DNA of 64,000 nucleotides from Prorocentrum cordatum (lineage: Eukaryota), in NCBI GenBank assembly GCA_963575745.1, contig CAUYUJ010000209.1, positions 1-64,000 of the forward strand. The letters are read 5' to 3'. The notes below the pieces were generated by a model, which worked only from the letters and a program-made list of their open reading frames with translations, did no database searches and had not been told where the DNA came from. A program made the translations under genes and the position numbers. Of this stretch, positions 4,274 to 46,251 are shown piece after piece (positions within the stretch are counted from its first letter, which is position 1; each line of letters starts with the position of its first letter).

Positions 4274-5455
4274 TATATATATATATATATAAGAAAAATA
4301 CACACAAATCACAGGACTCCCCATACTTTCAAATATTTCCTGGGTTTCCGCCTTCCCCCAAAAAAATCATACCTTTTCCCATATCTTCTGGGGGATCGAC
4401 GATTACTTGTGTCTGTGTGTTTTCCCCCCTCCTGAAAGGAGGCGGGAGTCACCACGTGCAGTGCGGCCACAGCACCGCTGCAGCATCCCCACGCAGTGCG
4501 GCAGGCCGGCCCCGGCGAGGCCGCGCCCGAAATCTCCGGGGGGGGCGCCGATTAACGCCCCGGCGCAGCGCGGCTGCCTCGACGGCGGGGCAGGGCGCGC
4601 GGAGACGTGGCGCGCGCGTGCCCCCGTGCGCGCTACCCCGTAAGTCGGGCGTGTCCCCCTGCAGGGGGATCATCGACGGAAAAAAAAAGAACTCCAAAAA
4701 TACACCAAAAAGATCAAAAGTACGCAAAAAATAATACCCAGACTATTTTGGGACTATGTTTGCACTATTTTGGGGGTATTTTTTATTTGTCGTCGAAAAC
4801 CCCCCAGTAGGGGGACAGGCCCGACTTGACCCTACCCTCGAGGGTCAATGGGGCAGCCAGGCGTTTTTGACCCTTGCCTCCAGAGGCCTCTGGGGACCTC
4901 CGGGGTCTCCCAGCGTCGGGGCCCGAGATGGCACCAGACCTTACCAGCGTCACCCTGGTCCACACCCCCACGCCTTAGCATCCCGATCCGACTCGGCCGC
5001 CTCCTCCTCCTCCACTTCCTCCTCCTCCTCAACCTCCTCCTCCTCCTTGTCCCTCTCCTGCCCTCGTCCTCGTCCTCGTCATCCTCCGCTTCCTCCTCGT
5101 TATCATACTCGCTTCAAAGTCCCCAACTTCTCCTCATGGCTCTAAACTGATCCCTCTTCTGCATACACATATACCTTCTCCTCGTCCAACTCCTCCGCAG
5201 TATTCCTCTCCTCCTCCTCGTCGTACCCATCCTCCGCCTCATAACTCTCTCTCTCTCTCTCTCTCGATATTATCTCTCTGACTCTTGCTGTGTGAACAAT
5301 TACAGAAGGAGAGAGAGAGAGAGGAAGATGAGGAGAGATCGCTCTCTCTCTCTCTCTCTATCGATCGCGCTCTCTCTCTCTCTCTCTCTCTTTATCTCTC
5401 GTTATGTGTTGTTTATTATCTCTCCCTTTCTCTCTCCTTCTCTTTTGTTTGGTTA

Positions 5456-25848: not shown

Positions 25849-25910
<62 letters not shown>

Positions 25911-28900
25911 TTGCGCCAGAACGCGCGGCCCGATCTGTCTCCGGGGCCCCGGCTCATCTGCCTTGCCCTCGAGCAGCTCCCCAGCGTCCCAGCCCTTGAA
26001 GAAGCGGTCGAGGAACTCCTGCCCCCGAGGAGAGGCCAGGCAGGAATCTTTGAAGGGGCCCAAGGACACACAAATAAATACACACAAATAAAAGGATTCC
26101 CAATATTTTTCCATAGTTTCTGGGTGTTTGTCTTCCCCCCCACTTCCCATCTTTTCCCATATTTTCTGGGGAATCGACGATTAATTGTGTCTGTGTGTTT
26201 TTCCCCCTCCCGATGAGCTCATTCCCGCGATGAAAACTCCTTCCTTCGATGAACTCCTGCCCTCGATAAGCAATTTCCCTGAAAGGGGAGGGACTCTACG
26301 AAAGCTGACTGCTCCAATCCAAGCCCCTGGCCTCGGAGGCGGTAGTCATGAAGGTGACGCCCAGCTCTTCCTCATGTTTCGCAGCCATGTGTAAAATGGC
26401 GGGCAGAACGATTCGCAAATTAAGCCACAGAGCTTAAGGGTGAAAGCCGGATGTGGAGCCCGAAATTGTCAAGCTCAACCTGGTGATAATAGATCCTGCC
26501 ATCTCGCTGGCACGCTCTCGCCTGCATGCCTCCAGGGGCCCTCGGAAGCAACCCGAGCTCCCCGCCTAGAACCTCGACACAGCGAAGGCCTGCGGCTCCC
26601 GGTCGGAAGCTCAGGAGGGAAGGACGAGGAGAGAGGAAGGAAAAGGATATCATTTAAGCCCGACCCGAGCGCCGAGCCATACTCGTACCTCACGCGTTCT
26701 CGAAGGAAGCAGGCTAGACAAAGCGGGCAAGGCAAATGGCACGACACGCAGCCAAAGCACGGCCAAGACGGAAGTTCCGTGATTGTTGAAGAACGTTTAG
26801 GGGAACCTGGAACTGCGCAAGGCCCAACCTCCCTTACCACCCGGGGGGCAGTAAGGGAGCACCCGTTCACTGGAATGCGTCAACACCCACCCCGAGATAG
26901 CGTCGCCTGAAATGGCAAGCAAGGAAGGATGTCGTTTGAGGCGACCAGGGGGTCTGCGCTGGGTGGGCCTGAAGAGAATCTGTCAACAGGGGTGGGGGAG
27001 ACAAATCCGTTCAAAATCAATCCCTGGACCCCTCCTGGGTCGAAACTAACAAGTGCTTAGAGTCGCGCGCGTCCAACGGTGGCGACGAGGGGGCACCTTT
27101 TGCCCCCCTTTGCGGCGGCTGGAACCTGTGCTGGGCCACCTCAGCTCCTCAGCCGGCTCAAACGATGTCGACACCCACCCATCGAGCAAGAACGTCTCAG
27201 CACGTCTGGCCATCCACCGGGCTCGCTCCCTTTCCCGATCCCTTGATCCGCGCACCCGGTCCTCCTCCTCCTCCTCCTCCTCCTCCTCCTCCTCCTCCTC
27301 CTCCTCCTCCTCCTCCTCCTCCTCCTTCTCTTCCCTTCTGCGTTACCCCGACGTTGATCAATGATCGCCGCGCCTGAAGACAGGCCAGGCAATTTAGAGA
27401 TACCGACCTAGGCGATGAGCAGTGGCCTGTGAACAAAACAGGTAGCCGAGCTAAGGGGATAAAAGCAAGCAGGAGTGAGAGGACAGGCAGTGAGAATGCG
27501 ACAAGAAAAAATAGCCCGTTCGGGTGCAGAGCATGCGTGCAGAAAGTCTTGAATGAGGTGAGGAGCGAAAGGCCACAAGCAACGCCCCAAGAGGACCCCG
27601 AGACCGCCAGCATGCGCCCAGGAAACTCCCAAGAGGCCCGAGGAGGCCCCCAAGATGGCCCAAGAGAGGCCCAAGAGAGGCCCCTGGAGGGTCCCCAAGA
27701 GGCCCCGGAAGGTCTCACCCGTTGACGTCATCCCTCTCCTGGGAGGCCGGCGGAACGGCGCAGGCCTCTCGAAGAACTGCCCGTTCGGGCGCAGAGCATG
27801 CGAGCTGAAAGCCCTCGAGGAGGTGAGGAATGAACAGTCCACATTATAACAGATTCCATTCCTCCTCCTCCTCCTCCTCCTCCGCCTCATCCTCCTCCTC
27901 CTCCTCCTCCTACTCCTCCTTCTGCGTCCTTCTGCGAAAAGAACAAGTTACCGCCTGTACACACAATAAGCGCAGCAGCATGCCCGTTAAAGAAAAGAAC
28001 ACAGAGAAACGAGAAAAGGGTTGGTCCTCGTGCTGCACGCGGCGGCTGTTCAGGGAGTTGGCAGCGGCGGCGGAGAAGCGAGGATGTGTGAAACTGGATA
28101 AATCCTGCCAAAAACTGAGCCATTGGAAGGGTCGACACCCGACTTCAAAAGCCTCAGAGAGTTGGCAGCGTCTCGGTTGCCAGGCCCCCCGTTACAAGGT
28201 TCCCGAACAAATCTGGAGCGTTCCGAACCAAAAGCCCCGCACCGAGAACAGTACGCCATCCGACCTCCCCCGAGCCACATTCCCATCTCCTCCTCCTCAT
28301 CCTCCTCCTTCTCCTCCTCCTCCACCTCCTCCTCCTCCTCGTTCTCCTCCTCCTCCTCCGCCTCCTCGCCCACCTCATCCTCTTGAAGGTGCCACGCGCC
28401 ACTTCCAAGTTATCCTGGCGAAGGACCCAACCAGATGCAGGTGCTAGCACCGTGGTTGTAGGTATCGTCTTCGATGGAAATCCCTATGGGGTCACGAAAC
28501 GTGTGATGGATGAGTGTGCCGAAATGGGCGCGGCGGTGCCATGCTGGCGCTGCCACTGTGGTCTTCGGCGGAGCTCCCTTTGGAGCCCCGAAACGTGTGA
28601 GGGGTTCGCCGGAATTGGCGCGTCTGCGCCACGCTGGCGCAGCCTCTGGGGCGTTCGATGGACCCCCTATGCCGCTACGAAGCGCTTGAGAGGTATGCCG
28701 AAATGGATGCGGCGGTGCCATGCGGGCGCTCCCACTGAGGCCTTCGGTGGAGCTCCCCATAGGGGCAACGAAGCGTGTGAGGGGTGTGCCGACATGAATG
28801 CGGTGGCGCCATGCAAACGCAGCCACTGGGACTTCGGTGGAGCTCCTTGTGGGCCCACTAAACGTGTGAGGGGTACCTCGAAATCGGTGCGGTGCCGACG

Positions 28901-31174
28901 TGGGGACTGTGCGAATGTAGCCGTCGGTGGAGCTCACTACGGGGCCACGTAACGTGTGAAGGGTGTGCCAATATGTGTGCGGTGGGGGGTATGCGAACGC
29001 AGCCTATGGAGCCGTCGGTTACGCTCCGTATGTGGCAACGAAACGTGTGAGTGCGTGCCGGCATGAAAACGGTGGTGTCATGCGAACGCAGCCACTGGGG
29101 CCTTCGGTTGCACTCCGCATGTGGCAACGAAACGTGTGCGGGGTTTGCCAAAATAGACGTGGTGGTGCCATGCGATCGCAACCACAAAGGCCTCGGTGGA
29201 GGTCCCTAAGGGGCCACGGAACGTGTGAGGTGTGTGTGCCGCAATGCGTGCCGTGGGGACATGCGAACGCAGCCACTGGGACCTTCGGTTGCGCTTTCTA
29301 TGTGGCATCGAAACGTGTGAAGACATTGCCGAAATGAGCTCGGTGGTGCCATTGCGAGCGCAGCCACGGGAAGCTTCGGTGGAGCGCCTTCTAGGGGCGC
29401 AAAGCGCGTGAGGGGTGGGCCGAAATGGTTGACATGCGGAGGGCACAGGCAGGAATGAGAGGAGGGAGGAGGGAGGAGGGGGAGGAAAGAGAAGTGAGTG
29501 AAGAACACAGGGCGCTGTCTCTTCAAAACGGGGACTCAACACCACAGGAGGGTTAGGAAACAAGACTCTACCTCCACCCCTCGCCCCCATCTCCCCCCGT
29601 TCAAGATAAAGTCCCTCTGCTCCTTCGTCGCCCCCCTCTGGTCGCCTAGACTGCCCCTGGGGGGCTGAAGGGAGGGAGTAACAGAGGAGACAGGAGGAGG
29701 GACAGAGGGACAGACGCCCCCCGCCAGGAGGGAGGGGGAAGGAGGCAGGAGGGGGAAGGGGGAGGGACATGAGCAGGGGAAGGGGGAGGTGTAGAAAGGG
29801 AAGGATGGACAGGGCCAGGACCTGCTGGCCCCATCCTGGAGGAGGAAACGCAACGCATCAGACTCCGCAACGAGAGGAGGAAGGGAAAGGGAGCGAAGGA
29901 GAGCACTCTGCACCACACGCTGCCGAAGCAGAGGGCGGGAGATCTTCTGCGGAGGATCTCCTGCCCCGGGTGCTGCTGCCTGGCCGACGTGGCCGCAGGC
30001 AGTGCCCTCCTCGATAAGCCTCCGCCTCCGCCGCCACCTGGGTTCGGAGACCCCTCGTAATCCACAGCGCCAGCGCCCCGCCTTTGCCGTGCGGGGGCGC
30101 CCTCCCCCCCCGTCCCCTCCACGTCGTAGAACTTGGGGTCCCGCTTGCCGCCCTGCCCGAAGCGCTCGGTGAACAGGATCCACTGCTCCTGTCCCAGGGG
30201 GGGGAGGCGCGAATGCAGGGGCCCTGGGACACACAAATACATACAAACAGATAACAGGATTCCCCATATGTGTCCCATATGTTCTGGGCTGTTGCCTTCC
30301 CCCCCACTTCCCATGGTTTCCCATATTTTCTGGGGAATCGACGATGAATTGTGTCTGTGTGTCTGTTTTCCTCCTGAGCGAAAAGAAACTGTGCTCTGGA
30401 GCGGTTGTCCTACAGCAGGGGCCCTTCCACAAGGAACCCTCCACGAAAAAGCCAATCCTGAGACCCCAGGACGTCCATGGATTTCTGGTGTGGGAGCGCC
30501 ACGCTTTCCGCAGCAAAACCATCGAAACCAAAGAGACCCAGGGCACCTTGGAGCCAAGCAGGGTGTTTCTTGGCATGGGTTGCCACTGTAGAAGATGAAG
30601 ATGGTGAGGATCATGGTGCGGTTGCTGCTGCGAATGCAAATGGTGGTGATGATGCAGGCGATGCTGATGTTGATGATGATGGTGATGGTGACGGTGATGG
30701 AGATGGAGATGGTGATGGTAGTGGTGATGACGATGATGGTGATGATGCTGATGGTGTTGATGCTGATGGTGATAATGAGTACGCAGGTGATGGTGATGAT
30801 GCTGGCGATGATGCGGGCGATGATAATAGCGATGGTGATGATGATGGTGATGCTGATGATGCTGATGATGCTGATGTTGCTGATGATTCTGATGGTAATA
30901 GTGATTAGGAGAAGGATACTGACGGCGATGATGCTGGTCCTGATGATGATGGTGATGATGCCGATGGCAATGATGTTGGTGATGATATTATTGATGACAA
31001 CGCCGGTGCGGATGATGGTGGTGATGATGAGGATACTGGTGATGGTGGTGATGATATGGATGACGATGATGGATGATGATGATGATGAGAATGACGATGC
31101 TGATGAAAACGATGATGATGATGAAACAATGATGATGATGAACACGATGATGATGATGATGATGATGATGATGC

Positions 31175-31205
<31 letters not shown>

Positions 31206-31257
31206 GGTGGTGATGAGAATGACGATGCTGATGAAAACGATGATGATGATGAAAACA

Positions 31258-31292
<35 letters not shown>

Positions 31293-31325
31293 AATGCTGA
31301 TGGAAACGATGATGATGAGGAACGC

Positions 31326-31389
<64 letters not shown>

Positions 31390-32692
31390 ATGATGATGAT
31401 GATGGTGGTGATAATGATGATGACGAAAAAAGAAGAATACGCAGAAGAAGCACAATAATAATGAATACAGGGCAGCGTTCAATACATAGGATGTTTCAAA
31501 ATATATGATGCATTAATGTATGAACACATGTATGCATGAACTCATCCCTGCATCTTCAATACGTGATCCGCACGCGGAGCATGTACTAAAACGGCACTGT
31601 ACTAAGCACGCAGACAGAAACGCCCGAAGCTCCGCGCGGAGTTCTTGGACCGGCGATGGGCCCGCCGCCCCCCGGCGCGCTCCGGGGCGCGCGGGGGGGG
31701 GCGGCGCCTCGTGCGGCGCAGGCCCCCAGACCTCCGCGCGGACCTCTGACATCGAAGGGGCCCAGGGACACACAAATTCGCCGGCCCAACGGGCCAGAGG
31801 CGTGCTAAGATCTCCGGCAACTGGTTACCAATATTTCTAGTTCGCGCGCGCGGGGCGGCCCCTGGGGGTCCCCCGGCGAAAAGTATCCCGACCGCAGCCC
31901 GACCAGGTCTACTCAGAGATCGTTTTGAGGGCCTTTTTTCGACACCCCTCACGAGGATCGTGGCCTCCGAAGGGGGTGCACTCGACTGCCCCGCCCCAAG
32001 AGGCCCCCAAGAGCCCCCAAAGAGGCCCAAGGGGGCCCCAAGACGCCGCCAAGGAGCCCAAAGAGACCCCCAAGAGGCCCCCAAGAGGCCCCTAGGAGGC
32101 CCCAAAGAAGCCCGCAAGAGGCTTCAAAGAGGCCCCATAGAGCGCTCGAGGGCCGGCGGAATGAGCGAAGCGATTAAATGAATACACATAAATAACAGGA
32201 TTCCCCATACGTTTTTTTTTCTCTCTCTCTTTTTTTTTGAGTTTTCTTCTTCCCTCCCCCCCACTTCCCATATGTTCCCATCTTTTCCTGAGAATCGACG
32301 ATTCTTTGTGTTTTTTTCCCTTTCCGAGACATTTCGTTTCACCGCAAACACTCCACGTGCAGCTAGCATCCGCGCGCTACTCTCGGAAGTGCCGTGGTCA
32401 GCGTCCGCCGCCGCGCCACTGCCCGCGAGCAGCGCTCGGTGACGGGCACAGGAGGAGGAGGAGGAGGAGGAGGAGGAGGAGGTGGAGGAGGAGGGCACAG
32501 GAGGAGGAGAAGGAGGAGGGCACAGGGAGAGGAGGAGGAGGAGGATGAGGAGGAGGAGAGGAGGAGGAGGAGGAGGAGGGCACAAGAGGAGAAGGAGGAG
32601 GAGGAGAAGTATGGGTACCCAGAAGAAAGTGACACAGGAGCCCAGAACAAGGAGCGGAGGAGGATGGAGGAGGAGGAGGAGAGGAGGAGGAG

Positions 32693-32723
<31 letters not shown>

Positions 32724-35700
32724 GGAGGAGGAGCGAGGAGCGAGGAGGAGCGAGGGCACAGGAGGCGGAGGAGGAGGAGGAGGAGGAGGAGGAGGGCAAG
32801 CGAGGGCACTGAGGAGCGAGGGCAATGGAGGAGGAGCGAGGCGTCGCCCACGGCGAGCCTCGACCACGACGGGGCTCCCCGACGCAGATCCGAGGCACGG
32901 CCCGAAGACCTCCGCCCGGGGCCCACTCAGAGGGGGAGGCGGAGGAGGAAGGAGGAGGACGGGACGGAGAGAGGAGGATAGGGCGAGGATCAGTACGAGG
33001 AGGAGGAAGAGGAGGAGGAGGAGGAGGAGGAGGAGGAGGGAGAGGAGGAGGAGGAGGAGGAGGAGGAGGAGGAGGAGGAGGAGGAAGGCGCAGGAGCAGG
33101 AGGAGGAGGAGGATGTGACTTCGAGGAGGTGGGGGAGGGAGTGACTTCTGCCCCTCCTGAGCCCCAGATGCCAACTATGCTGGCGTCTCGGCTGAAGCAC
33201 CTCTCGGGGTTCTCGGGGGCTCGAGGAATGGAGCCGGTCAATCATGTTGTCTCCCGTGGAGGACCCGAAAGCACTACGGGACGGAAGGAGCCGCCGCGAC
33301 TGCTGGGGCCGCCGCGGCTGCTGGCGCCGCCCGCGGGAGCGCCGCCGACGACCGCCCGCACGGCGGCGGGAAGCGGAGGCGGACGGAACGGCAGGGGGAT
33401 TGCTTTTCGCGGCGCGCGAGGCGGAGTCACCGAGGCGCCCTCTGCGGCTCCTGCGCCTCTTCCCGCCCGTCGGCGCTGCGGGCGCTGCCGGCACCACCGC
33501 CCTCGCCCAGTCTGCGCGCGTGTCTGGCTCGGGTGTTGCTAGAAGTGCTCCTGGCCCCAGGTGCCTCCAGCTTTTCGCTCCGCTTTGGAGGCCCTGGAGC
33601 CCTCTGGGCCTCGTGAGGGGTGCCCTGGAGGCCGTCTGGGGCACCCCCGAGAACCCTGGGGGTACCTTGGGCCAGATGTACTTCTGGCAACACCCGGCTG
33701 GTGGGCAGGCAGTCTGCCAGCACGGCCCGCCAGTCGCTCGCGGGCTGCGCCATCCGCGCGAGGATGCGCACCACGCAGTCGACGTTGAGCACCGGGTGTG
33801 CGCCTCGTGGGCCGTACCTCCGGAGCGGCAGCCGCCGCAGCCTGGTCGCCCCGTGCTCTTCGGCCTGGCGCCGGACCGTGCCCTTGAGGACGAAGCGGTC
33901 GACGAGCCCGCCGATCACGTAGATGTCCTCCCGAGACAGCTCCTCGAGGTCCTCTTGGCGGCGCGCCCAGGGGGGAAATGGAGGGGCGGGCCTTCTCAGA
34001 AGGCTCGGAAGTTGCCCCTGGCCTTCTGAGAGGCTTTCGGAGCCTTCCCCCGAGGAGACACAGGGAGCTTCTCAGAAGGCATTAGAGCTTCTGAGAAGTC
34101 CCACCGCCTTCTGAGAAGCCCTTCTCCTTCTCGTTTCCCCCCCTCGCGCGCCGCCGATCCTCGTCCGCGTCGGGCGAAAGCACCACGATCCTGGACCTGT
34201 CGAAGAGCTCCCAGTAGGGGGCCTGCTGGCAGTGCACCAGCCACTTGCGGAATCCCAGGTCCTCCAGGAAGGGCAGCACGGGGTTCGCGGGACCGACGGA
34301 CGTCAGGTGCAGCTGCAGCTCGGAGCGCTGGTCGCGGAGGAACATGTAGGCCATCTGTGCCTGCTTGGCCAGCGAGAACTGCTCCTCGTGGGCGAAGCAC
34401 ATCTCCGCATCCGCTGCCTCGCGGACCAGGCCCCCTGGCCGCGACCCCGCAGATACGGGGCGCTTTGAGGGCGGATGCCCCGCTCGGAACGTGCCCGTGC
34501 GACCGCGTCATCGGCGGGACCGCGCCACGGAATCCAGACTGCGGGGACGTGGATACGGATACGTTCGCCACTCGTGAGCTCCCTCGGCCCCATGGCCTCC
34601 GCGAAGCTGCAGCTGATCAGGACCTTTGGCGACCCGTGCTCGTGTGCCCACCGCAGGCTCTCCCTCAGCTCCGCCTCACGCGCCGCGTCCCGCTCGCGCG
34701 AGGCGGCGGCGCGCTCCAGGATCGAGGCGCGCTCCTCGTCGCTCATCTCGGCCCACGCCGCGTCGGCCGCCTCCATCCTCTTCTTCTCGGGTCGGACGGG
34801 GGGGGGCGGTAGCAACGGGCGGGGGGGAGGTTGCGCATCGGTGAGGTTTCGCCACGTTGCGCCCGCGTGCGCGGGGATGGGCGGCCGATCTTCCCAGCGC
34901 CTCCCCGCGGAGGAGGCGCCAGTGCATCGAGGCAGGCGCCCGGCGGCGGCACCGAAGAGCAGCTGCACGCCGCGGGTTCCGTGCCGCGGGGCGCAGACGG
35001 ACGCGCGAGCACGGGGCGTCCCCCCCTTGGAGGCGCACGTCCGACCGGAGCGTGCAGTGGAAGCACGTTGCGGCATGCTGTTGATTAGCCAAGCGGCATG
35101 GACAGACAGCGCTCGCCACGGCACGTGGACTATCAAGGGTGCTTCGGCGTGCGCGCTGCCCGCGGGGAAGCGGCGCACGCACAATGCACACTACACAGCG
35201 CACTCGTGTCGGAGTCCGACCGATACTCCTTTCTATCTGGAGGCCTCCCGGATGGGGTCCCAGTAGATGGGATCGGCGGATCGCGCCGCATTGCCAATGT
35301 ACCGCCGATGAATCGCCGATGCGTCGGCGACGTCGACAATGCATCGGCGCCACTGGCGTGGAGACAATCGGGCTCCGCATCGAGCCACATCGCCGATGCA
35401 TCGCCGATGCGCCGCGACCCTCTGACCCCATCTGCGTCAACCCCATTGGGGCGGTCTGGACTTTCCTGGGCCCCCCCTCACCCCTTGCGGCCTGGCCTGC
35501 CAGGCGCTTCTTCTCAAGTGCCGCAGGGGGCCTGGCCCGCCGCGGACGGTCTGCAGACCGCTTTCCATCTGTCCATCTGTCCCTCTAGCGTTGCACCCTG
35601 GCTGTCGGGTCATAACCCTATGACGGTGAGAATCGCACCCTGGGCTGAAGCTCGGGGTCCTGGAAGGATAACTTTTTCCCAGAGATATCGGTATTGGGAT

Positions 35701-38700
35701 ATCGGGATGGGTCTTGAATGACCTCCAGGCTCTCCGGCGGCCATTCGAGACGATCTGGGCACCCCCAGCACGCCCTCGGTGAGGCGCAGCTGCCGGAAGG
35801 CACCCCGAGGCTGGGAGACTGTCGAGAACTGACGAGCACGCCCGAAAATCTCGAACCTCCAACCCCCGTCGGCGACTCCGAAGGGTGTGGCTTGCAAAGG
35901 GTGCGGCTTGCAGCCCGCACCCTGGGGAGAGGGCGAGGTTCTCGACAGAGCTCTCCGCCGCGCCCCGAGGAGGCCCGACGAATGCAACGTGGTGCCTCCA
36001 CGTCGCAGCGACGCAGATCGCAAATCACACCCCAGCGTAACCTCGGAGGCCAGGAGGTGGACACCAACACCGACATCGGCGGTGTACCTCCACCGAGGGA
36101 CAATGATCCCGGTCTCGGTGGTGGTGGTAAGATTCGGGCTTCCCAGGTGGCCAACAAAAATTACCACCGACACCGACATCGAGGATCCTCTTCTCCCTGT
36201 GGAGGCAGACCCCCTGTGTTGGTGCTGCTGCCCATACAGTCGGAGCGTTGACCCAAGGAACCCGAAATAAGCAACGAGGCCCCTCTCATCCACAAGTTGA
36301 ACTTCGATTTCCCATCGAAAACCAAAGGAAAACCCAAGGCAAACTGTAAAACAATCAAGGAGCACCGAACCCCTGCCCAACGAAAAGGGTTCCTTCTCCA
36401 GCGCCCCGACTGTACCCGGGCCTCCACTAATAACCCCACCCCTCCGGGCCGCCCCCACGCCGCCCCCCCTCGCCGGACCCCCGTCTGCCGCTCCAGCCTC
36501 TGCTCCCGGCGCCGCTCCCGCTGCCGCTCCCGCTTCTGCGCGCGCCTTATGTCGGGCGTGTCCCCCTACAGGGGGATTTTCGACGAAAAGGTATAAATAA
36601 TCCAAAAGTGCTCCAAAAATTACAAAAAAAAAAAAATACTCAAAAAATAGTCCCACGACTATTTTTAAAATATTTTATTTTTTTCTGCGAAAATCCCCCT
36701 GTAGGGGGACAGGCCCGACTTCACGCGCGCCTCCACGCCCTGCGCTCCTCGGGCCGCAGGCGCTGCGCGGGCAGCGCCAACGGGCGGGGGGGGGCCACCG
36801 CTGGCATGCAGGAGCAGCCAGTGCACATCGCACCGTCGAGCTCGGCTCGGCTCACGGCGTGCGTCCGATCGGGCTGCATCGGCACGGGGTCGGGATCGGA
36901 TCGACTCTGTCCGCGATGCTGGCCGTGGCCGGCCCTGGCCGACCGCCCCCCTCCCCCCAGGTAGCGTCACGATTCGGGCTGACCTCCGAGCTGTCTACGG
37001 GTTGTGCTGTAGGCATTCCCAGACGGCGCTGGCGCGAAGCGTGGCGTTTTACCCCCCCCACATCCTCCCCCCGGTAACGCCAGCTGTCGCCCGGGAGTAA
37101 AAGAGCACCCTCCAGGATGCACGCCATCGCCATGGCGTCATCGCCAATGCAAGCTTCGGGCCGCATCGGATCGCAAGAGCATCGAACTCGAGTCCAATCG
37201 AACTGGCCAAAATCGATGCCGGAGGATCGGATCGATCGGATCGAAATGGACCCTGCTGAGGGGGTCGCCACCTCCTCCAGGGAACGGCGCACTCCCTTCG
37301 ACTCCCCCAAAGCCCCCAGCACTCCCAGAGGCTCTAACAACGTCCAACCTCCTCCTCCTCCTCCTCCTCCTCCTCCTCCTCCTCCTCCTCCTCCTCCTCC
37401 TCCTCCTCCTCCTTCTCCTCGATCCTTCCCTTGAAGTGGTGACCCCCCCGGCAGGCGAGCGCCCCCACCCTCGGCGCTGCCCGAGATTCCTCTCGCATGG
37501 ACGGAGGCCCTCGTCCTGCCCAGGGGGGCCCTCGGCAGCGCCGCAGGGGCCCCCCTCGCCCCCGCCCGCCGCGCCCAGCTCGCCCTCCCCGCCGCGCCCG
37601 CCCGCCGCCGCGGCCCCGCGGGGCCCCCGAGGCGCCTCAATGGCCGCCGCGGGCCGCCGCGGGCCCCCGGCGGCCCCCGCGGGCGCCCGCGGCCCGCCGA
37701 AGGCCGCCGCCGCCGGCGCCGCGCGCGCGCGCGCGGCCGCGAGGAGCGCGGCGCACGCGGGCAGCGCCGAGGGCCCCCGCAGCCTTGCCGCCCGCTGCGC
37801 GCGGCCGCGCAGCGCGCGCGCCGCCGCCGCGCCCAGCATGCCGCCAGCGTCCGCCAGCGCATGCGAAGGAGGTGCGGCCGCCGGCGCGAGCGCCAGACCC
37901 GCGGGGGCCCCGAGCAGCCTCGCGGGGGCGCGCCAGGCCTGCGCGCCGCAGCCATTGGCCATCGGCTCGGGCGGGAGGGCGTTGGCCAGGATGGCTCGAG
38001 CCCAAACGGCTGAGCAGGATGAGCCCCGACATCCTCGCGTCATAAAGCAATCGCGACAGAAAGTTATTCGCCAGTTTCGGCTTCCAGCACGGCACGCGGG
38101 CACGTCATCACGGCACGACACTCGGGCACGGCCAGGTACGCGGGCGGCACAGTGCCGCTGTTTCGAACGTAGGCGCAGCACGTCACACGGGCACGGCTCA
38201 TCACGGCTTGGCGCGGCCCAGCACGGAACGCGGGCGGCACATCTGTCGCAGTTTCAAACGCAGGACCACGTTCTCAAAGCAGCTCGGATCCCTCATCTCC
38301 ATTGCTGCGTCGGGAATGAGGCAGCTCAGACTCCATAAAACATGCGTTATGTAGGGAGTCATACTTCCTTAGTCCGAATCAACTCAATTCAACTAGCGTT
38401 TGCCAGCGTGGACCCCTAACAGAGAGATACTGCACTTTCGAAGCGCAAGCGGCAACCAGTGGCAACGGGCGGCAACGCGGCGAATCCGCGGCACACCCCC
38501 ACGGGCGGCCACGGGCTGCAGAGGGCGACCACGTGGCGAATCCTCGGCATCCCCACACGGGCGCCCACGGGCGGCCACGGGCGGCAGCGAGGCGAACCTT
38601 CGGCACACAGCCACGGGCGGCCTCGCGCGGCAACAGGCGGGAACGTGGCGAATCCTCGGGACACACCCGCAGACAACAGCGATCACCGACGGGCGGCCAC

Positions 38701-39288
38701 GGGCCAGAACGCGGCGAATCACCAGGACACCCCCACAGGCGGCAACGGGCGGCAACAAGCTGGAACGTGGCGAATCCTCTGGACACTCATACAGCTCCTT
38801 GGAACACACACACACACACACACACGTAAGAACCCTTACGTGTCAGCACTGTGTGTGGGGGGGAAAGATACAGCTGACAATTCATCCTACTTCATCCCGC
38901 ACGAACAAAACATCTACTACAAAAAACAGTCAACAGCAATCTGCACATAGCTACCGTGCAGCTAGGACACTGGCGGTGCAAAACTTGGCCGCGGAAACGT
39001 GCGACGGCGACACCACAACACCCCGTGACGCTCAACCGCCACCATACACCAAGACACCACGACACCACCACACCATCACATCACGAAACCACATGACACC
39101 ACGACACCACCAGAAACTACGACACACCACGACACCATGAGGCCACGACACCACGTCACCTCACGATTGCAAGCGCAATGACGTCTCTGGCCAGCTCCGC
39201 CGGCGAGACTCGGGCTTCTCAGACGCTGTGGGGGCGGCAGACGCGCCACCAAGCAGCCCGACGGAGACGACGCCGACGATGTCGATGT

Positions 39289-39344
<56 letters not shown>

Positions 39345-40840
39345 CAACCACCGCCACCACCACGATGGTCACGATCAGTGGTGATAACTAGGGGGCCACA
39401 TGCGAACCCTACCCCTACCCCCCACGATTTCTGAAGGGGGAGCGTGGGGGTTACTTTGCTCGGGAGCCCCCGAACGAAGTGAACCCCACCCCTCCCTCAG
39501 AAATCGTGGGGGGCAGGGGCATAGGGCTTGCATGTGTGGCCCCCTATAGAGGACGGCCCTGGCGCCGCCGCCGAGCGGCACGGACCGCGCGGCGTCCTTG
39601 CCGACCATGTCGGTCTTCTGCAGCTGCTTGACGCGGTCGCGCACCTTCTCCTGCCGCGCGGACGGGCGAGGCGCGAGCTCGGCTCCGCGGGCCGAGGCTC
39701 GGCGCGGGCGCCGGCGGCCGTGCGGCGAGTGCGGGGCCCGCCGCCCGGCTTCTCTGCTCCTCCCCGCCCCCTTCCGGGGGCGGCCGAGAGGGGGGCGGCT
39801 AAGAGGGGGGCGGCCAAGAGGGGGGGAGGGCGCAAATCCTGGCCGGCGGCACGTGCGCGGCCCAGGGGGGTGGGGGGGGCCAGGGACGTAGTGGAGCAAG
39901 AAGAGGCGCCGTGGAGTCTGGAAGGACATCCCGGCCCACGCCCTGATGTCCATCCCCCCCTATAGTCATCACCCCCCTTTTTGCCGCCCCCGACCCTTCC
40001 GGGGCACGTCAATGTTGGGGACTGCGCGCAGACCTCCAACACCCAGGCCTGAGTCCTCCCCCCTCCCTTCTCCCCCCTCGATCAACATTTCTTCTCGGCC
40101 ATCCGGCGCCACCGCCAGGCTCTCGCAGGGCCGTACTCCCCGGGACGACTGACTGGCGCCTCGCCTCGCCTCGCCATCCCCTTCTGAGTGGTTGTGGCCG
40201 AAGGTTGAGGGTGGGGCCGAAGGTTGAAGGAACAACCTCTGCGAGCTTCACGCTGTCTGCGACCGGCACGGTCGCTGCACCCGTGGCTCCACAAGCCCAC
40301 TCGCTCCCACCTCACCCCCTCTCCCCCGTTCCCGTTCCCCTCCGCTCCCCATCACATCCCGCCCACTCCTCCCCTCCCGCCCCCGCGCCACCCCCAAACC
40401 CCATCCCTCCACTCTCACCCCTCCTCTCCTCCTGCCCTGCCGCCCCTATTCCGATGTATGACGCGCGTACGCGGAGAAAGTGAAAACCGTCTTCTTGAAT
40501 ATCGCTGCCATCATGAATCGCGATTTGGAAGCAGGCGCTTCAAGCATTTCGAAAAACTGCGAACCAGGAGAACTGGGAGGAAAAAAAGGTCAGAGAGGAA
40601 GGAGGGGAGAGAAGAGCACAGGAGAGAGAGGATGTTTGAAGATAGAGACGGGGGGGCTGCTTCGAAGAAGATACGGAAGGATAAAGCCTGCGAGGGAGGG
40701 ATGCAGCACACGCCCGCACTTTTTACCCTCCAACGCACCACTGGTTTGCAGCCAGCAATAAAAGGGGCGCTGCAAAGACGATGACAATAACGCGCACACG
40801 CACGCGCACCCTAACTCTCTCTCTCTCTCTCTCTTTGTTG

Positions 40841-40871
<31 letters not shown>

Positions 40872-43800
40872 CCTCTATCGCTCTCTGTCTCTCTCTCTCT
40901 CTCTTGTTTTGTTGATCGCGCTCTTTATGTACAATTATCTCTCTCCCTCTCTCACGATATTTTACATAGATTTCACATATCCCTCTCTCCCTCTCTGCCC
41001 CTATCTCTCTCTCTCTCTCTCAATTATCATGTGTTGTATATGTATTATTGTCCATTTGCGTACATGTACGGTATCGTTTTTTTTTCTCTCTCTCTCTCTC
41101 TCTCACGGTCTCTCTCTCTCTCTCTCTCGCTCTCTTTCTCTATCTCTCCCTCACTCCTTCCCTCCCTCATCTATCTCGATATCTAAACATGCTCATGGAA
41201 GCATACATACATGCATGCATATCTGCGTGAATGTTTGTGCTTGAACCGAGCCGTCGCGCGCTTCCCGCGCGTTCAAGATCCAGGTGCACACCACACGCTC
41301 GGGAATTGGAGCGCGCTGCATACCTCGAGACCTGAGGCATCGACCTGCGGCACTGGCCTTCTCCCCCGCTGCTCCCCTGACCAGGGGGAGGATCGCCCAG
41401 GAGACCTCGGGCAGAGAAAACTGCTCGCCACGAGCAGCGCGCGCAGGCGGCCTCTGGGCACCGAAGCCCGATGCCACGGCCACGGACACACGCACGGCCA
41501 GCTCGGTACCAGACCGCCTGGCCTACGCGGCTGCCCAGGCTCGGCCGACGCCCCAAAAGGACGGGGGCAGGGGCCCCAGGGCACCGCCCGGCAGCGCTCC
41601 GAACCGACCAGCAAGGTCCACCCACGAGGGAGGAGGCAGGGGGGCAGGAGCCACGGGGAGCAGCAGGAGAGAGAGGAGAGGCAGGAGAGGGAGAGGGAGG
41701 CGGGAGCGAGCGTGAGAGAGAGAGGGAGAGAGAGGAGAGGAGGCGGGAGATGGAGGAGGGCAGGGCCGGGAGGCAGGGGAGAGGAGAGCGCTGGAAGGAC
41801 GAGCGGAGTGGAGAGAGGCGGATAGAGCAGGAGAGAAGGACGAGGGAGGCACATGGAGGAGGGAGGACGCATCTGGGCCAAAGGTGGCCGCGCGTGCCCC
41901 CGCAACGTCGACCCAACCATGAACAATTTGTTGATCCGCGGGTCGAGAGCGCACCTCTTCCAGTCGAAGCTAAGCGGGCCGCGCGAAGCTTAGCTGGTCA
42001 ACCCCAGGAGGAACTGATCAAAACGTTTCCCGCGTGGTGAGGATCGGGGGGGTCCTGGGCCATCTGGGAAGTTTGCTCGGGCCAATGTGGATTGTATTGG
42101 GGGCCCCTTGGGTGGTTTGGGGGCTCTCTTGGGCCGTCTTGGGCTCCTTTGGGCCGTCTCGGGGGCCTCCTGGAGCCGCCACAGGGCCATCCGAAGCCCC
42201 ACGTGGCCGTTTCGGGGCTCTCTTGGGCCTTTTCGAGCTCTCCAGGGCCCTCTGAAGCCGTCTTGGGCGCCTTTTAGGGTCATCCTGTCGTTTTGGGTCA
42301 TGATGGGCGCCCTGAGCAGAGGAAAACAAGAACCCTAAAATTATTAACATGTCTAAAGAAAGTCGATGGCTTGTTCCTGTGAGGGCCCCCCTGGACCCGT
42401 CTAGGGAGTCTGTTGGAAGCCATTCTGAGTTTTCCTGAGCCGCCTTGGAGGCGTCGAAGCTGCCTTTAGGGTCCCTCCTCGCATACTCGCGCGCGTCTTA
42501 TGCTGGATCCCGAGCCTCGCTGGGACCCCCCCGCGGCTGTCTTCAGAGCCTGGCGAAAATCCCGGGAGGCCCTGGACCCAAGCTGGAGTTTCGAGGTCCC
42601 GGCTACAAGCATATGACGTCGGATATGAAGATTTCTCGATACGGGCCGTGGTAACGAAGCTTGGGACGCACATGATTTTTAAAGACCCAGAAGGGGTCTC
42701 CAGAGGCTTCGGAGTCCAAGGGCCGCGCGCCCATGATGACCGCCGCACCACCACCCCAGCGGCACAGCGGCCAATGCCGAAGGCCAGCGTTCAGGAGCAC
42801 ACTCGGCCACCAGGCATCCACACGTCTCGGTGGGCCGCTCCCGTATTAAGTGAAGAAACGCGTCTGGAGGCGACCCCAAACCTTGCGCGGCGGCGACTAG
42901 CGATGATCACCACCTACGTCGTTGCGATACGGCGAGCACCCGAGCGCAGGCGCTACGAACGAATAGCCATCGACGCCAGCCGCCTACCCAGGCACAAGCC
43001 GCCCAGGGCCGTGCAGGACAGGCCCCCACACAGCCGCAACAACGGGGGTAGCGCCAAGTAATCACTCAGAGCCGCGCTTCAAAAACATTCAGGACATCAG
43101 AGGAGATCTGAAGACGGACAGCGTGATGCGCGTGTAAAAAAAGGCATCGCACATGCAGGCACACAGCAACGAAACCTCAGACGGAAGAGGATAGAGGAGG
43201 ATAGCGGTTGAAATCCAAGGCATCATCACAGGAGCAATGGAGAACAATGCACCCACCCATCTGACACAAATCTCGCGGAAGCGACGACAGAACTTATAGC
43301 GACGACGATCATCATAGTCTGTGGACATACCACCAAACCCATACTCGACGCAAGAGCACCCAAATATACAACCACGAGGAGGAGAATGGAAGCGAGCACG
43401 AATGCAAGCCCCACGAGTACACATACGGAGAACGTTCATAGCAAGATGTGGAGACGCAGAGGTAGAGTTGCGACGATTGTTGAGGACGAGATGAGAGAGG
43501 CCAACCCCAATAATCTCAGGCAGCCAGTTCCGTAGACGAATAAAGAGCTCCTCAAAAACGGACGGCACAGTGAGAGGGGGAGCATGAAGACGTGAGTAAA
43601 GTTTACGCTGGAATACGTCAGGCTTAATACTGGGAACGTCCACGATGCCATGGGCAGCTGCGCTGACTTAAATAGATCAGACAGGAACGACTGTTGATAC
43701 CACCTTTGCGGACCCACCACACGAGCATAGCACGCATCCACTCCACCAACGATACGCTTAAGCTCACCCCAGCAATCTCCAACGCCGGGGCATTGCGTGG

Positions 43801-46251
43801 CAAAACGTACACGGCAAGCAGTAGAAAGGGCATCGGCATCAGGATTCTCACTCGGGAACCCGAGCTGCATCTACGAAATAAGCATATTGTACGAGAAATT
43901 CGACGGACCACATGTAAGTCTCTGGGGCATATGTTCATATGTCTTCGTAACAAACGGGGAGAGAGGCTTGATCTGCATCACAAACTGCAATACACTGAGG
44001 CACACAATCTGAATATTGAACGTGGCAATCGCGGTGGAATAACCAGGCGACAGCAAACGAAGCTGGGAGCAGCGCGCAACAAATTTCTCAAGGGGCAATT
44101 GCCAGGCCTCCCCAGCAGCACATGGCCAGGTATAAAAGTCGAGGTACTTCATAAGTCCTGCGCCTCCTGACCAGAGTCTGCTTGACCCTCTCCTCCATCC
44201 CCTTCCCACATAGCAAACGGCTGCACTTGCCAACATTGAGCGCCAGCCCAATGGCTCCATCGAGCAACAGGGGCGCACGCCACACTGCTGGCAGGGAGCC
44301 GATCACATTCACCACGCCAAAGCAGTCGTCGGCATGCGCAAGGCACGGAGAGAGCTGACGAGGAAGGGTAGATTGCTTCCAACGAATAACTGGGTCGAGA
44401 CAAAGAACATACAGCGCCATTGAACTTGGGTCACCCTGCCTGACCCCGCGACTCAACGCGAAGCCCTCAAACCGCCTGCCCCCCCCCCCCCACCACCCAC
44501 CCACACACGATTTCTCTCGTACAACATGCGATAGAAGTTCAAGATCAACAATGGAATACCCGTAGCAGCAAGCACAGCGTGGAGCCAAGAATGGAGGATA
44601 TAAGGACACGCAGCCGCAAAATCAGCAGCAAAGACCGCAGCACCATCATGTCCGAGCAAGTTCCGCTGAAGGCCCCACCCCTCCGCCTGAACAACACTGG
44701 TAAGCAGCTGCCGATCCTTGACACACATCTGCAACGGAACAACGGTGTCGCGTGAAAGCTGATTGAGCGGCACGCAACGCAGGCTAGAGAGAAGCTTGGC
44801 GTCTGTGTTGGCCATAGACAAAAGGCGAGTGCAAGCACAATCCCGAACAACGTTCCCTGCACCGTCCCCCACCCGTTCTCCTTTCGGCAAGAAGACCGTC
44901 GGCAGCTCCCCCACATCATCGGGCAATGCAGAGAAGGTGCCACGCACCACTGCAAGATAAACGCTGTAATGGTATCGCGGAGCGTCTCCGGCGCGCCAGC
45001 ACCAGTGCGGAATCCCATCAGGCCCCGGCCTCGAGTTACGACGCGAGCGAATAAGCTGGTAAAACCCAGGATAAGCGACCTCCCAAACAATCGTTTCTCC
45101 ATCATCAGTGTGTCGGTCCCCAGGGACAGCGCGAACATGAGTCAGGATCTCCTCCCAATAAATACGATCCGCGGGAACGTCCGAGAATACCCCCCCCCAG
45201 TAGTTCGCAAGGCAGGCGGCAGACGCCTCCAGCGATGGACACGGGCGGGCTTGCTCGTCCTGCACGGCAAAAAGAAACGCGCGTCGCTTAAACCTCCTCC
45301 AGAGCTCCTGCCTCCTTCGTGACCTCCTCATAACATTCATGTTGGCATCAACCTTGGTCTGCTGGTCATTCGTCAACTCCTTCTCCTCCGTCGACAGGCT
45401 GATATAAAGCTCTTGGATATGGCGGAAGAAACACTGAAGGTCAGTGCACACCATCGCCTCAAGCTCAAAGAACTGTTGCAGCGATGGGTGAGCAGCAAGG
45501 GCGCGGCACACGAGATGGTCTTGCTGCGCTCGAAGTCCACGCAGCGCGACCATGCATACACTCCGGGCAGGCGGCCAAGCTCATCCGCACGATCAGTAAG
45601 GATGCGCTCTAGCGTCTCGTGGTACACATCAGACTTACTCAACCAACTCGGGACCGTGGGAGCGTCGTTTGACGTCGGGCGATACGTAGTAATCTGCACA
45701 AGCACGGGTACGTGATCAGACGAGAAGGAATCGCAGAGCTTCCCAACGACAGGAGTTTGAATGGTAAGGTCAGCAATGATGGCAGCAAGGAAAGAAGAGT
45801 GAAGTCTGTCTAGCCGTGACGAATGAACTATATTACCACCACGGAACTCGCGACGTGTATCGTCAGCCTGGAAGAACTCAATCCAGTGCCCACAGCGCCT
45901 ATCAAAGACCTCACGAAACCGAGCATCACCATGAGTCCACCCACTCCCGTCCGCAGCCATCCTACCTTCACCCTCCAGAGTAAAATGTCCAATCCCCCAG
46001 GACAATCTAAAAACAACTGCTCGACAGGCGGCGGGGCTCCTAGAATGCCAACGACAATTGCTCGTATGTGCTGAGGGCTTCGCATGTATTCGGCATGTGT
46101 ACATCATGATCGCTAAATTCCCTTGAGCATCTTGAGCCAAAACGTCAACGGATGATGATGACAATGATGATGATGCTGATGATGATGATGGTGATGATGA
46201 TGGTGGTGGTGATGGTGATGGTGATGATGGTGATGATGGTGATGATGATGC

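What the first reader, a model, noticed from the sequence alone, without database searches (positions are those of the whole stretch)
33427..38023. Trm10 gene nested on the same strand inside a 9.4-kb intron of an RRM gene, with tandem SL relicts
Seen: host exons at 39597-39650 (..KTDMVGK) and 30120-30188 (EQWILF..) join in phase into a coherent module, yet an apparently complete multi-exon Trm10 gene lies between them on the same strand, 5'-tagged by SL-like units at 37981-38023. Known: genomic SL relicts in dinoflagellates mark recycled (retroposed) mRNAs, and trans-splicing can release an mRNA from a longer precursor. Inference: a retrogene landed in a host intron and may be expressed from the host pre-mRNA or its excised intron by SL trans-splicing at the relict AG. 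The spliceosome would have to skip all Trm10 splice sites to make the host mRNA.
Basis: partly seen in the sequence, partly recalled or inferred. Interest (0 to 1): 0.82.

Follow-up and report, generated by a model that had tools for sequence, protein, structure and literature searches.

The report
Trm10 gene nested in host intron
A tRNA-methyltransferase (Trm10) gene really does sit, in the same direction, inside a 9.4-kb intron of another expressed gene, but such nested genes are already known to be common in dinoflagellate genomes, so the case is well documented rather than new.

Summary
They also show a separate spliced mRNA on the same strand from 36763 down to about 33135. Its open 289-codon reading aligns with dinoflagellate-type Trm10 proteins (48% identity over 258 aa, E 2e-82).

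- The "SL relicts" are degenerate: 22 of 30 bases match, and 4 of 300 shuffles do as well. The longest exact run is 6 nt, below the published 9-mer criterion.
- No RNA read shows where the Trm10 mRNA begins.
- Trm10 has at least five introns. Four of the five are introner-type, with terminal inverted repeats, and two are whole copies of dispersed repeats. An old retrocopy that later gained introns is therefore possible but unproven.
- Whether Trm10 is processed out of the host precursor or transcribed on its own is untested.
- The host's "RRM" label is unverified.

Nested genes are 25.2% of genes in Amphidinium carterae and 6.5–8.4% in Polarella glacialis. This is an ordinary, RNA-validated member of a known kind. 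Interest is low to moderate.

The parts
39597..39652 (-). Host exon upstream of the long intron. It is preceded by an AG at 39653-39654.
   Evidence: piece 39595-39652 in X1 record 1 and joint 30186|39595. GA..AG offset. The X1 contig has 58 further nt upstream that were not placed.
30189..39596 (-). Host intron of 9,408 nt (GA..AG) that contains the whole Trm10 gene.
   Evidence: 8 of 8 junction reads in X21 have the first mate on +, and 1 contig in each of X1, X3 and X6 shows the joint; splice offsets; no terminal inverted repeat.
30120..30188 (-). Host exon of 69 nt downstream of the long intron.
   Evidence: piece 30117-30186; in frame with both neighbouring exons.
25953..26018 (-). Next host exon, joined across a 4,101-nt GA..AG intron (26019-30119).
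   Evidence: joint 26015|30117, 15 raw reads and 3 contigs..
37980..38023 (-). Tract of two to three degenerate DinoSL-relict-like 15-nt units. It ends 18 nt upstream of the ATG at 37962.
   Evidence: 37980-38009 has 8 mismatches in 30, and 4 of 300 shuffles reach that; gapped alignment of three units; longest exact run is 6 nt.
37768..37980 (-). Transcribed stretch and candidate first Trm10 exon (ATG at 37962). Its link to the downstream exons is not shown, and its strand is not shown.
   Evidence: X1 record 3, 213 nt, 0 mismatches, depth 3.4. Neighbouring intron bins have depth 0 in X1; weak codon periodicity in the ATG-37962 frame from about 38010 to 37440.
36724..36763 (-). Trm10 exon (start of the basic N-terminal region). 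An AG acceptor lies at 36763-36764, and the reading frame starts at 36762 in phase 0.
   Evidence: joint 36538|36724 in X1, X3 and X6, side 40-41; frame.
36539..36723 (-). Introner-type intron of 185 nt. It has 68-nt terminal inverted repeats, a 9-nt repeat at both borders, and a family copy at 4638-4827.
   Evidence: both = 9. (I1). (72% over 195 nt). (15-nt exact terminal IR, 0 of 1000 shuffles).
36484..36538 (-). Trm10 exon of 55 nt.
   Evidence: joints 34781|36484 (X1, X6) and 36538|36724.
34782..36483 (-). Trm10 intron of 1,702 nt. Its borders are AC..AG or GA..AA, and it has a 10-nt terminal IR.
   Evidence: 11 of 1000 shuffles; internal repeats shared with 22132-22383 and 23694-23829.
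34578..34781 (-). Trm10 exon.
   Evidence: pieces in X1, X3 and X6; tblastn hits from 7 of 7 homologues.
34381..34577 (-). Trm10 intron of 197 nt (GA..AG at offset 4), with no terminal IR.
   Evidence: 6-nt IR, 293 of 1000 shuffles.
34158..34380 (-). Trm10 exon (N-terminal half of the SPOUT domain).
   Evidence: E down to 1e-24.
33950..34157 (-). Introner-type intron of 208 nt (GA..AG at offset 2). It has 22-nt terminal IRs and family copies at 363-559, 20599-20779 and 14530-14655.
   Evidence: 10 of 1000 shuffles.
33698..33949 (-). Trm10 exon with the VIGGLVD motif (C-terminal half of the SPOUT domain).
   Evidence: alignment to 4fmw..
33524..33697 (-). In-frame intron of 174 nt with 41-nt terminal IRs. 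No GT/GC/GA..AG pair occurs at any allowed offset.
   Evidence: I1; 0 of 1000 shuffles; the alignment with P0001 runs unbroken across this joint; the printed homologue sequences likewise show no matching segment.
33135..33523 (-). Last Trm10 exon: the end of the CDS (stop at 33427-33429) and at least 290 nt of 3' UTR. Contigs stop where a (CCT)n tract begins.
   Evidence: X1 record 2 reaches 33141, X3 reaches 33166, and X6 record 7 covers 33135-33298. ORF end.

Best explanation
This is an ordinary same-strand nested gene of a GC-rich, dinoflagellate-type nuclear genome.

Shown:
- A working gene of the Trm10 family (tRNA position-9 N1-methyltransferase, SPOUT class) lies wholly inside a 9,408-nt GA..AG intron of another expressed gene.
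- The host mRNA is made by splicing straight from 39597 to 30188 and uses none of the Trm10 splice sites.
- Trm10 is matured as a separate mRNA with at least five introns of its own.
- Four of those five introns are introner-type, meaning palindromic transposon-like inserts bordered by short direct repeats.

Inferred:
- As for dinoflagellate mRNAs in general, the Trm10 5' end is made by spliced-leader trans-splicing at an AG inside the host intron, somewhere between about 38011 and 36763. The 3' end is made by polyadenylation at or below 33135.
- Whether the precursor is the host's primary transcript or an independent one is open.
- The gene may descend from an old SL-bearing retrocopy that later gained introner introns. 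I put that at about one in three.
For: -: the host joints have 8 and 15 raw stranded RNA reads, all in one orientation, and 1 contig in each of 3 runs. The Trm10 joints appear in 2-3 runs each, on separate contigs with 0 mismatches. None of the 15 listed joints links a host exon to a Trm10 exon.
- GA..AG or GC..AG offsets exist for both host introns and for 3 of the 5 Trm10 introns.
- the reading frame is open for 289 codons and aligns at 48% identity over 258 aa (E 2e-82) with P0001.
- P0001-P0003 pass Pfam tRNA_m1G_MT (45-51 bits against a cut-off of 27.3).
- a relative is named tRNA (guanine(9)-N(1))-methyltransferase in Durusdinium trenchii.
- the last exon aligns to human TRMT10A, including VIGGLVD.
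- introner features.
- Literature passages read: nested genes are 25.2% of genes in A. carterae (PMC12584245) and 6.5-8.4% in P. glacialis, confirmed there by full-length transcripts (PMC7245778). G-C and G-A donors and introner elements are reported in a 59.7%-GC dinoflagellate genome (PMC10666404).
Against: - The 5' end of the Trm10 mRNA was not seen. X1's contig has 50 unplaced nt upstream of 36763 and X6's has 16.
- Five joints and 375 loose ends were not displayed, so a hybrid host-Trm10 joint cannot be excluded.
- Single Trm10 exons do not reach Pfam's cut-off (13.2 bits), and the joined protein could not be submitted to Pfam.
- The contiguity of the assembly across the intron is unverified, because no DNA run holds the stretch.
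- No SL letters were seen on any listed read.
Confidence: 0.85

Rival explanations
1. An SL-capped Trm10 mRNA was reverse-transcribed into the host intron. The copy has no promoter of its own and is released from the host pre-mRNA, or from its excised intron, by SL trans-splicing at the AG of a relict unit (37995-37996). Each precursor therefore yields either host mRNA or Trm10 mRNA.
For: -: the tandem SL-like units are on the coding strand, and 4 of 300 shuffles match as well.
- They end 18 nt before an ATG.
- Weak codon periodicity in that ATG's frame begins there.
- An RNA contig ends at 37980, the 3' border of the tract.
- Four of the five introns look recently gained, which would reconcile introns with a retrocopy.
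- PMC5585692 (passages and table 2) reports that relict-SL genes carry as many introns as other genes.
Against: - The longest exact run shared with DinoSL is 6 nt, against the 9-mer criterion of PMC5585692.
- A single unit is at chance level.
- The base pair before 37980 is AC, and the contig does not reach 37994.
- No SL-bearing read was listed.
- No poly(A) relict or parental copy was examined.
- A review states that polycistronic expression appears rare in dinoflagellates (PMC11453091, passage).
- At least two other in-frame start models exist.
Confidence: 0.25
2. Trm10 is not a separate gene but an alternative 3' part of the host transcription unit. Host exon 39597-39652 would be spliced to the acceptor at 36763/36762 instead of to 30188, giving a fusion reading frame.
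For: - Host exon 39597-39652 ends in phase 0 and the Trm10 exon at 36762 starts in phase 0, so the join would be in frame.
- The 41-nt piece seen in X6 fits an upstream exon that ends in AG, as the host exon does.
- The upstream 50 nt (X1) and 16 nt (X6) of the Trm10 contigs are unplaced.
- Five joints were not displayed.
Against: - No such joint is among the 15 listed.
- The host contigs run through 39595|30186 without a break in all three runs.
- A separate 213-nt contig shows transcription at 37768-37980.
- Relatives carry 22-90 residues of their own before the basic region.
Confidence: 0.08
3. Assembly artefact: the Trm10 segment was wrongly placed between the two host exons.
For: No DNA run holding the stretch was found, the best share being 0.13 of the words. 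The region is rich in microsatellites and dispersed repeats.
Against: The window has no N. Long introns that hold nested genes on the same strand are the documented norm in this group. Nothing in the RNA data conflicts with the layout.
Confidence: 0.04

Closest known systems
Nested genes within introns of dinoflagellate genes (Amphidinium carterae, Polarella glacialis)
   Same: A shorter multi-exon gene lies inside a long intron of a host gene that has short exons. Both are expressed, and the structure is confirmed by transcripts (PMC12584245 and PMC7245778, passages read).
   Different: Nothing essential differs. Here the nested gene is a single-copy housekeeping enzyme, and its introns are mostly introner-type. 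The papers' passages do not discuss strand or how nested genes are released.
DinoSL-relict retrogenes (model of Slamovits and Keeling 2008 as cited in, and extended by, PMC5585692)
   Same: SL-like units lie in tandem just upstream of a start codon on the coding strand, and the gene carries introns, as relict-bearing genes often do (table 2 of PMC5585692).
   Different: The units are far more decayed: 22/30 matches and a longest exact run of 6 nt. That paper required an exact 9-mer. No parental copy was identified.
Introner elements of free-living dinoflagellates
   Same: Four of the five confirmed Trm10 introns have inverted repeats of at least 10 nt at both ends and 3-9-nt direct repeats at the borders. 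Two are whole copies of dispersed families. This matches the operational definition quoted in PMC10666404.
   Different: The family identity with published introner families was not tested. One such intron (33524-33697) has no standard splice dinucleotides at any allowed offset.
Trm10 / TRMT10A tRNA (guanine-9-N1)-methyltransferases
   Same: There is a colinear match over the SPOUT domain and a basic N-terminal region. The VIGGLVD motif aligns with that of human TRMT10A.
   Different: The N-terminus is unresolved, with three in-frame models of about 50 to 173 extra residues. The substrate (G9 or A9) and the cell compartment are unknown.
SL trans-splicing that resolves multi-gene precursors (nematode operons, trypanosomatids; recalled, not looked up here)
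   Different: Here the downstream gene sits inside an intron, so release would compete with cis-splicing of the host. No evidence for a common precursor was obtained.

Membership tests
Trm10 family (Pfam PF01746 tRNA_m1G_MT, SPOUT) | Significant sequence match to the family over the methyltransferase domain | tested here: met
   The evidence is indirect. The RNA-defined joined protein aligns at 48% identity over 258 aa (E 2e-82) with P0001, and P0001-P0003 pass Pfam's cut-off. The last exon alone matches TRMT10A at E 2.5e-5. Single exons alone are below Pfam's cut-off (13.2 bits). The joined protein itself was not sent to Pfam.
Trm10 family (Pfam PF01746 tRNA_m1G_MT, SPOUT) | Conserved GG(L/I)VD motif with the catalytic aspartate (the role of the Asp is recalled, not looked up) | tested here: met
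   VIGGLVD of the window aligns with VIGGLVD of 4fmw. The motif is also present in P0001-P0003.
Trm10 family (Pfam PF01746 tRNA_m1G_MT, SPOUT) | Trefoil-knot SPOUT fold and SAM binding; m1G9 or m1A9 activity | not tested
   No structure prediction or assay was run.
Nested (intronic) gene | Host exons on both sides are joined in mature RNA | tested here: met
   joint 30186|39595 in 8 raw reads and in 3 contigs from 3 runs.
Nested (intronic) gene | The inner gene gives its own transcript, not joined to host exons | tested here: inconclusive
   the contigs are separate and none of the 15 listed joints is a hybrid. However, 5 joints were not displayed, and the 5' 50 nt (X1) and 16 nt (X6) of the Trm10 contigs are unplaced.
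Nested (intronic) gene | Genomic contiguity of host exons and inner gene | not testable with these tools
   One search found no DNA run that holds the stretch, and one search shows that no genome is held.
DinoSL-relict retrogene | Exact DinoSL run of at least 9 nt within 500 nt upstream of the ORF (criterion of PMC5585692) | tested here: not met
   the longest exact run is 6 nt upstream of either candidate ATG, and 8 nt (37206-37213) upstream of exon 36762.
DinoSL-relict retrogene | Tandem truncated SL units on the coding strand beyond chance | tested here: inconclusive
   8 mismatches in 30, and 4 of 300 shuffles reach that; a single unit is at chance level.
DinoSL-relict retrogene | A parental, intron-bearing copy elsewhere, with few shared introns | not testable with these tools
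   no genome is held; there is no second copy in the window.
Introner elements | Inverted repeats (8-20 nt) and direct repeats (3-5 nt) within 30 nt of both intron ends (definition quoted in PMC10666404) | tested here: met
   four of the five Trm10 introns have exact terminal IRs of 10-15 nt (0-11 of 1000 shuffles). Neither of the 2 host introns does; border repeats ('both') of 3-9 nt.
RRM protein (host gene) | RRM domain encoded in the host transcript | tested here: inconclusive
   RRM_7 at E 0.08 on the ORF 15910-16122 only; no RNP-1 motif on the minus strand. The exon lies outside the stretch laid.

The most novel reading that the evidence does not exclude
Trm10 has no promoter of its own. 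Its mRNA is cut out of the host gene's primary transcript by spliced-leader trans-splicing and polyadenylation inside the intron. Each precursor molecule then becomes either host mRNA (cis-splicing across 9.4 kb) or Trm10 mRNA, and the ratio is set by competition between the two reactions. The locus would then be a natural reporter for polycistron-like transcription and for post-transcriptional dosage control in dinoflagellates.
Probability: 0.25. Interest if true: 0.55.

Novelty: new member of a known kind. Interest (0 to 1): 0.25.

Why it matters
As a structure it adds one clean, RNA-validated example to a class that already covers a tenth to a quarter of the genes in sequenced dinoflagellates.

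Its use is as a test locus. Host and nested mRNAs share a strand, both are detectably expressed, and their junctions are unique. Long-read cDNA and nascent-RNA data at this one place could therefore tell whether same-strand nested genes are released from the host precursor or are transcribed separately. That is an open point in dinoflagellate gene expression.

It also shows a conserved housekeeping gene whose introns are mostly transposon-derived. This bears on how quickly introns are gained in this lineage.

Tried and rejected
ORF references were used instead.
- A regular expression for further copies of the host's W..F..DP module found only the one at 30135-30182.
- Whole-genome search for a parental Trm10 copy: no genome is held.
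- Earlier notes of this scan: none.
- Protein database searches with the last Trm10 ORF found only relatives at 50-57% identity. No protein of this organism was found, so the N-terminus could not be read from a database entry.
- Two exact-pattern scans of metagenome contigs with exon stretches found nothing.
- Rfam at gathering thresholds found nothing in the window.
- Codon-position GC favours the ATG-37962 frame only weakly. Intron controls reach similar values, so it does not settle the first exon.
- The depth ratio of host to Trm10 (35.2/9.4, 50.5/16.4 and 57.6/10.4 in X1, X3 and X6) was not used as evidence of co-expression. There are only three points, and the tool warns that depth is a poor measure.
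- The high depth at 25075-25122 is a GC-rich motif shared by many transcripts. It is not a feature of this locus.
- The run shares of 0.07-0.13 were not read as telling habitat or strain.

Full report
**What the window is.** The window has about 60% G+C. Its coding exons are short, with 93-95% G+C at third codon positions, and are separated by long introns full of microsatellites and palindromic repeats. Introns use GA and GC donors. These are the hallmarks described for free-living dinoflagellate genomes (PMC10666404, passages; PMC11453091, passages). No whole genome is held for the window, and no earlier notes exist.

**Check of the observation: the host.** Twenty-four runs were offered, all holding only 0.01-0.13 of the sampled words. 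One run of raw stranded RNA reads (X21) and the contigs of three others (X1, X3, X6) were laid on 23001-43000.
- A joint from 30186 to 39595 that skips 9,408 nt is seen in 8 raw reads and in one contig in each of the three contig runs.
- A second joint from 26015 to 30117 is seen in 15 raw reads and in the same three contigs.
- All 23 junction reads have the first mate on the plus strand. In the usual stranded library this means minus-strand RNA.
- Within the 4-nt ambiguity, only one offset gives a standard acceptor. That is GA..AG, with introns 30189-39596 and 26019-30119.
- The exons are then 39597-39652, 30120-30188 and 25953-26018, and they read in one frame.

**Check of the observation: Trm10.** Separate contigs with no mismatch (X1 1,207 nt, X3 1,046 nt, X6 675 nt and smaller ones) define the pieces 36724-36763, 36484-36538, 34578-34781, 34158-34380, 33698-33949 and 33135/33141-33523.
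- Three raw junction reads, again all with the first mate on +, support two of the joints.
- Joined by coordinates in a script, the frame is open for 289 codons and ends at the stop at 33427-33429.
- It aligns at 48% identity over 258 residues (E 2e-82) with P0001, and similarly with P0002 and P0003. These three pass Pfam's tRNA_m1G_MT cut-off.
- A further relative is named tRNA (guanine(9)-N(1))-methyltransferase in Durusdinium trenchii.
- The last exon alone matches human TRMT10A (4fmw, E 2.5e-5), with VIGGLVD aligned.
- All seven fetched relatives hit only these exons, in order, on the minus strand. There is no second copy in the window.

A spliced, apparently intact Trm10 mRNA is therefore made from inside the host intron on the host's strand.

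**What is not shown: the 5' end.**
- X1's Trm10 contig has 50 nt, and X6's has 16 nt, upstream of 36763 that were not placed.
- A 213-nt contig (X1, depth 3.4, no mismatch) covers 37768-37980, while neighbouring intron bins have zero depth in X1. That stretch is therefore transcribed, but neither its strand nor its link to the gene is shown.
- Three first-exon models join in frame to 36762 (and reading):
  - ATG 37962 with a GC donor after 37768.
  - ATG 37962 with a GT donor after 37444.
  - ATG 37498 with a GT donor after 37349, at the end of a (GAG)n tract that the lay tool would have skipped as a repeat.
- Relatives have 22-90 residues before the basic region. That fits the first and third models better than the second.
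- Codon-position G+C weakly favours the ATG-37962 frame from about 38010 to 37440, but intron controls reach similar values.

I leave this open.

**The SL-like units.** The consensus used is DCCGUAGCCAUUUUGGCUCAAG, as printed in PMC5585692.
- The tract 37980-38009 matches two tandem 15-nt relict units at 22 of 30 positions. Four of 300 dinucleotide-type shuffles of the window reach that.
- A third, gapped unit extends the tract to 38023.
- A single unit is at chance level: 3 matches with up to 3 mismatches against 1.88 expected.
- The longest exact run shared with the leader is 6 nt. That is below the exact 9-mer that PMC5585692 required to call a relict.
- The contig ends at 37980, at the 3' border of the tract. 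However, the two bases before it are AC, and the contig does not reach the AG at 37995-37996.

The tract is suggestive, not established, and nothing shows trans-splicing there.

**Introns and origin.**
- Trm10 has at least five introns, so it is not a fresh retrocopy.
- Four of the five have exact terminal inverted repeats of 10-15 nt within about 35 nt of both ends (0, 0, 10 and 11 of 1,000 shuffles). Neither of the two host introns does.
- The borders carry direct repeats of 3-9 nt ('both' column).
- Introns 36539-36723 and 33950-34157 are, over their whole length, copies of dispersed repeats found at 4638-4827 and at 363-559, 20599-20779 and 14530-14655.
- This meets the operational definition of introner elements quoted in PMC10666404.

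Such introns are thought to be recent gains. An old retrocopy that later acquired them is therefore coherent, and PMC5585692 reports that relict-bearing genes have as many introns as others (table 2). But introner introns are common in this kind of genome anyway, and no parental copy or orthologous gene structure could be examined. I give retro-origin about one chance in three.

**Mechanism.**
- Shown: two mature mRNAs come from one strand, and the host mRNA skips every Trm10 splice site.
- Inferred from general knowledge of the group: the Trm10 5' end is made by SL trans-splicing and the 3' end by polyadenylation.
- Untested: whether the precursor is shared with the host.
- A fusion isoform is still possible. 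Host exon 39597-39652 and Trm10 exon 36762 are both at phase 0. I rate this about 8%, because no such joint was listed and the host contigs run through unbranched.

**The host's identity.** The 'RRM' label rests on one ORF at 15910-16122 that holds an RNP-2-like stretch (RRM_7, E 0.08). No RNP-1 motif was found on the minus strand, and the exon lay outside the stretch that was laid. The same ~160-nt repeat precedes this exon and two confirmed host exons, which is a hint of common architecture and no more.

**Comparison and novelty.** Genes nested in introns make up 25.2% of genes in Amphidinium carterae (PMC12584245) and 6.5-8.4% in Polarella glacialis, where they were confirmed by full-length transcripts (PMC7245778). 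Relict-SL retrogenes and introner introns are likewise described. A search for 'dinoflagellate', 'nested gene' and 'intron' listed 8 papers. I read passages of two of them and did not look for any paper on how nested genes are released. This locus is a new member of a known kind. Its value is as a convenient test case for the open question of shared versus separate precursors.

**Verdict.** Interest is 0.25.

Noticed in passing
window 46131-46151 (-): A near full-length DinoSL-like 21-mer (18 of 21 positions; 2 of 200 shuffles reach that) is followed directly by ATG and then a stop five codons on. It could be the relict of another retroposed mRNA, possibly a dead one.
   Followed up: partly
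window 30215-30420, 26054-26208, 16203-16346 (also 48430-48585, 4298-4420, 32176-32311): A dispersed repeat of about 160 nt (76-86% identity, same orientation) lies directly upstream of two RNA-confirmed host exons (30188, 26018) and of the RRM-like exon at 16121. It seems to supply the 3' ends of these long introns.
   Followed up: partly
window 39390-39560 and 24746-24902: A 171-nt palindromic element sits 36 nt inside the host intron, just after its donor. A copy at 88% identity lies at 24746-24902.
   Followed up: no
window 36417-36863: One X3 contig (262 nt, depth 3.1) lacks the 185-nt introner 36539-36723 but keeps unspliced intron sequence on both outer sides. Either this introner is spliced first, or an allele without the insert exists.
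   Followed up: no
window 33524-33697: An in-frame 174-nt intron is removed in three runs, yet no GT, GC or GA donor pairs with an AG at any allowed offset (CC..AG or GC..CA). It has 41-nt terminal inverted repeats. The alignment with P0001 runs unbroken across the joint, and the other homologues printed likewise show no matching segment.
   Followed up: partly
window 37206-37213 (-): An exact 8-mer of the leader (ATTTTGGC) lies inside the intron, about 450 nt upstream of exon 36762. By the formula of PMC5585692 this is expected by chance about once in ten such regions.
   Followed up: no
window 25075-25122: A GC-rich stretch of about 40 nt is shared by many unrelated transcripts (depth up to thousands, many different loose ends). 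It is a common low-complexity motif rather than a gene feature.
   Followed up: partly
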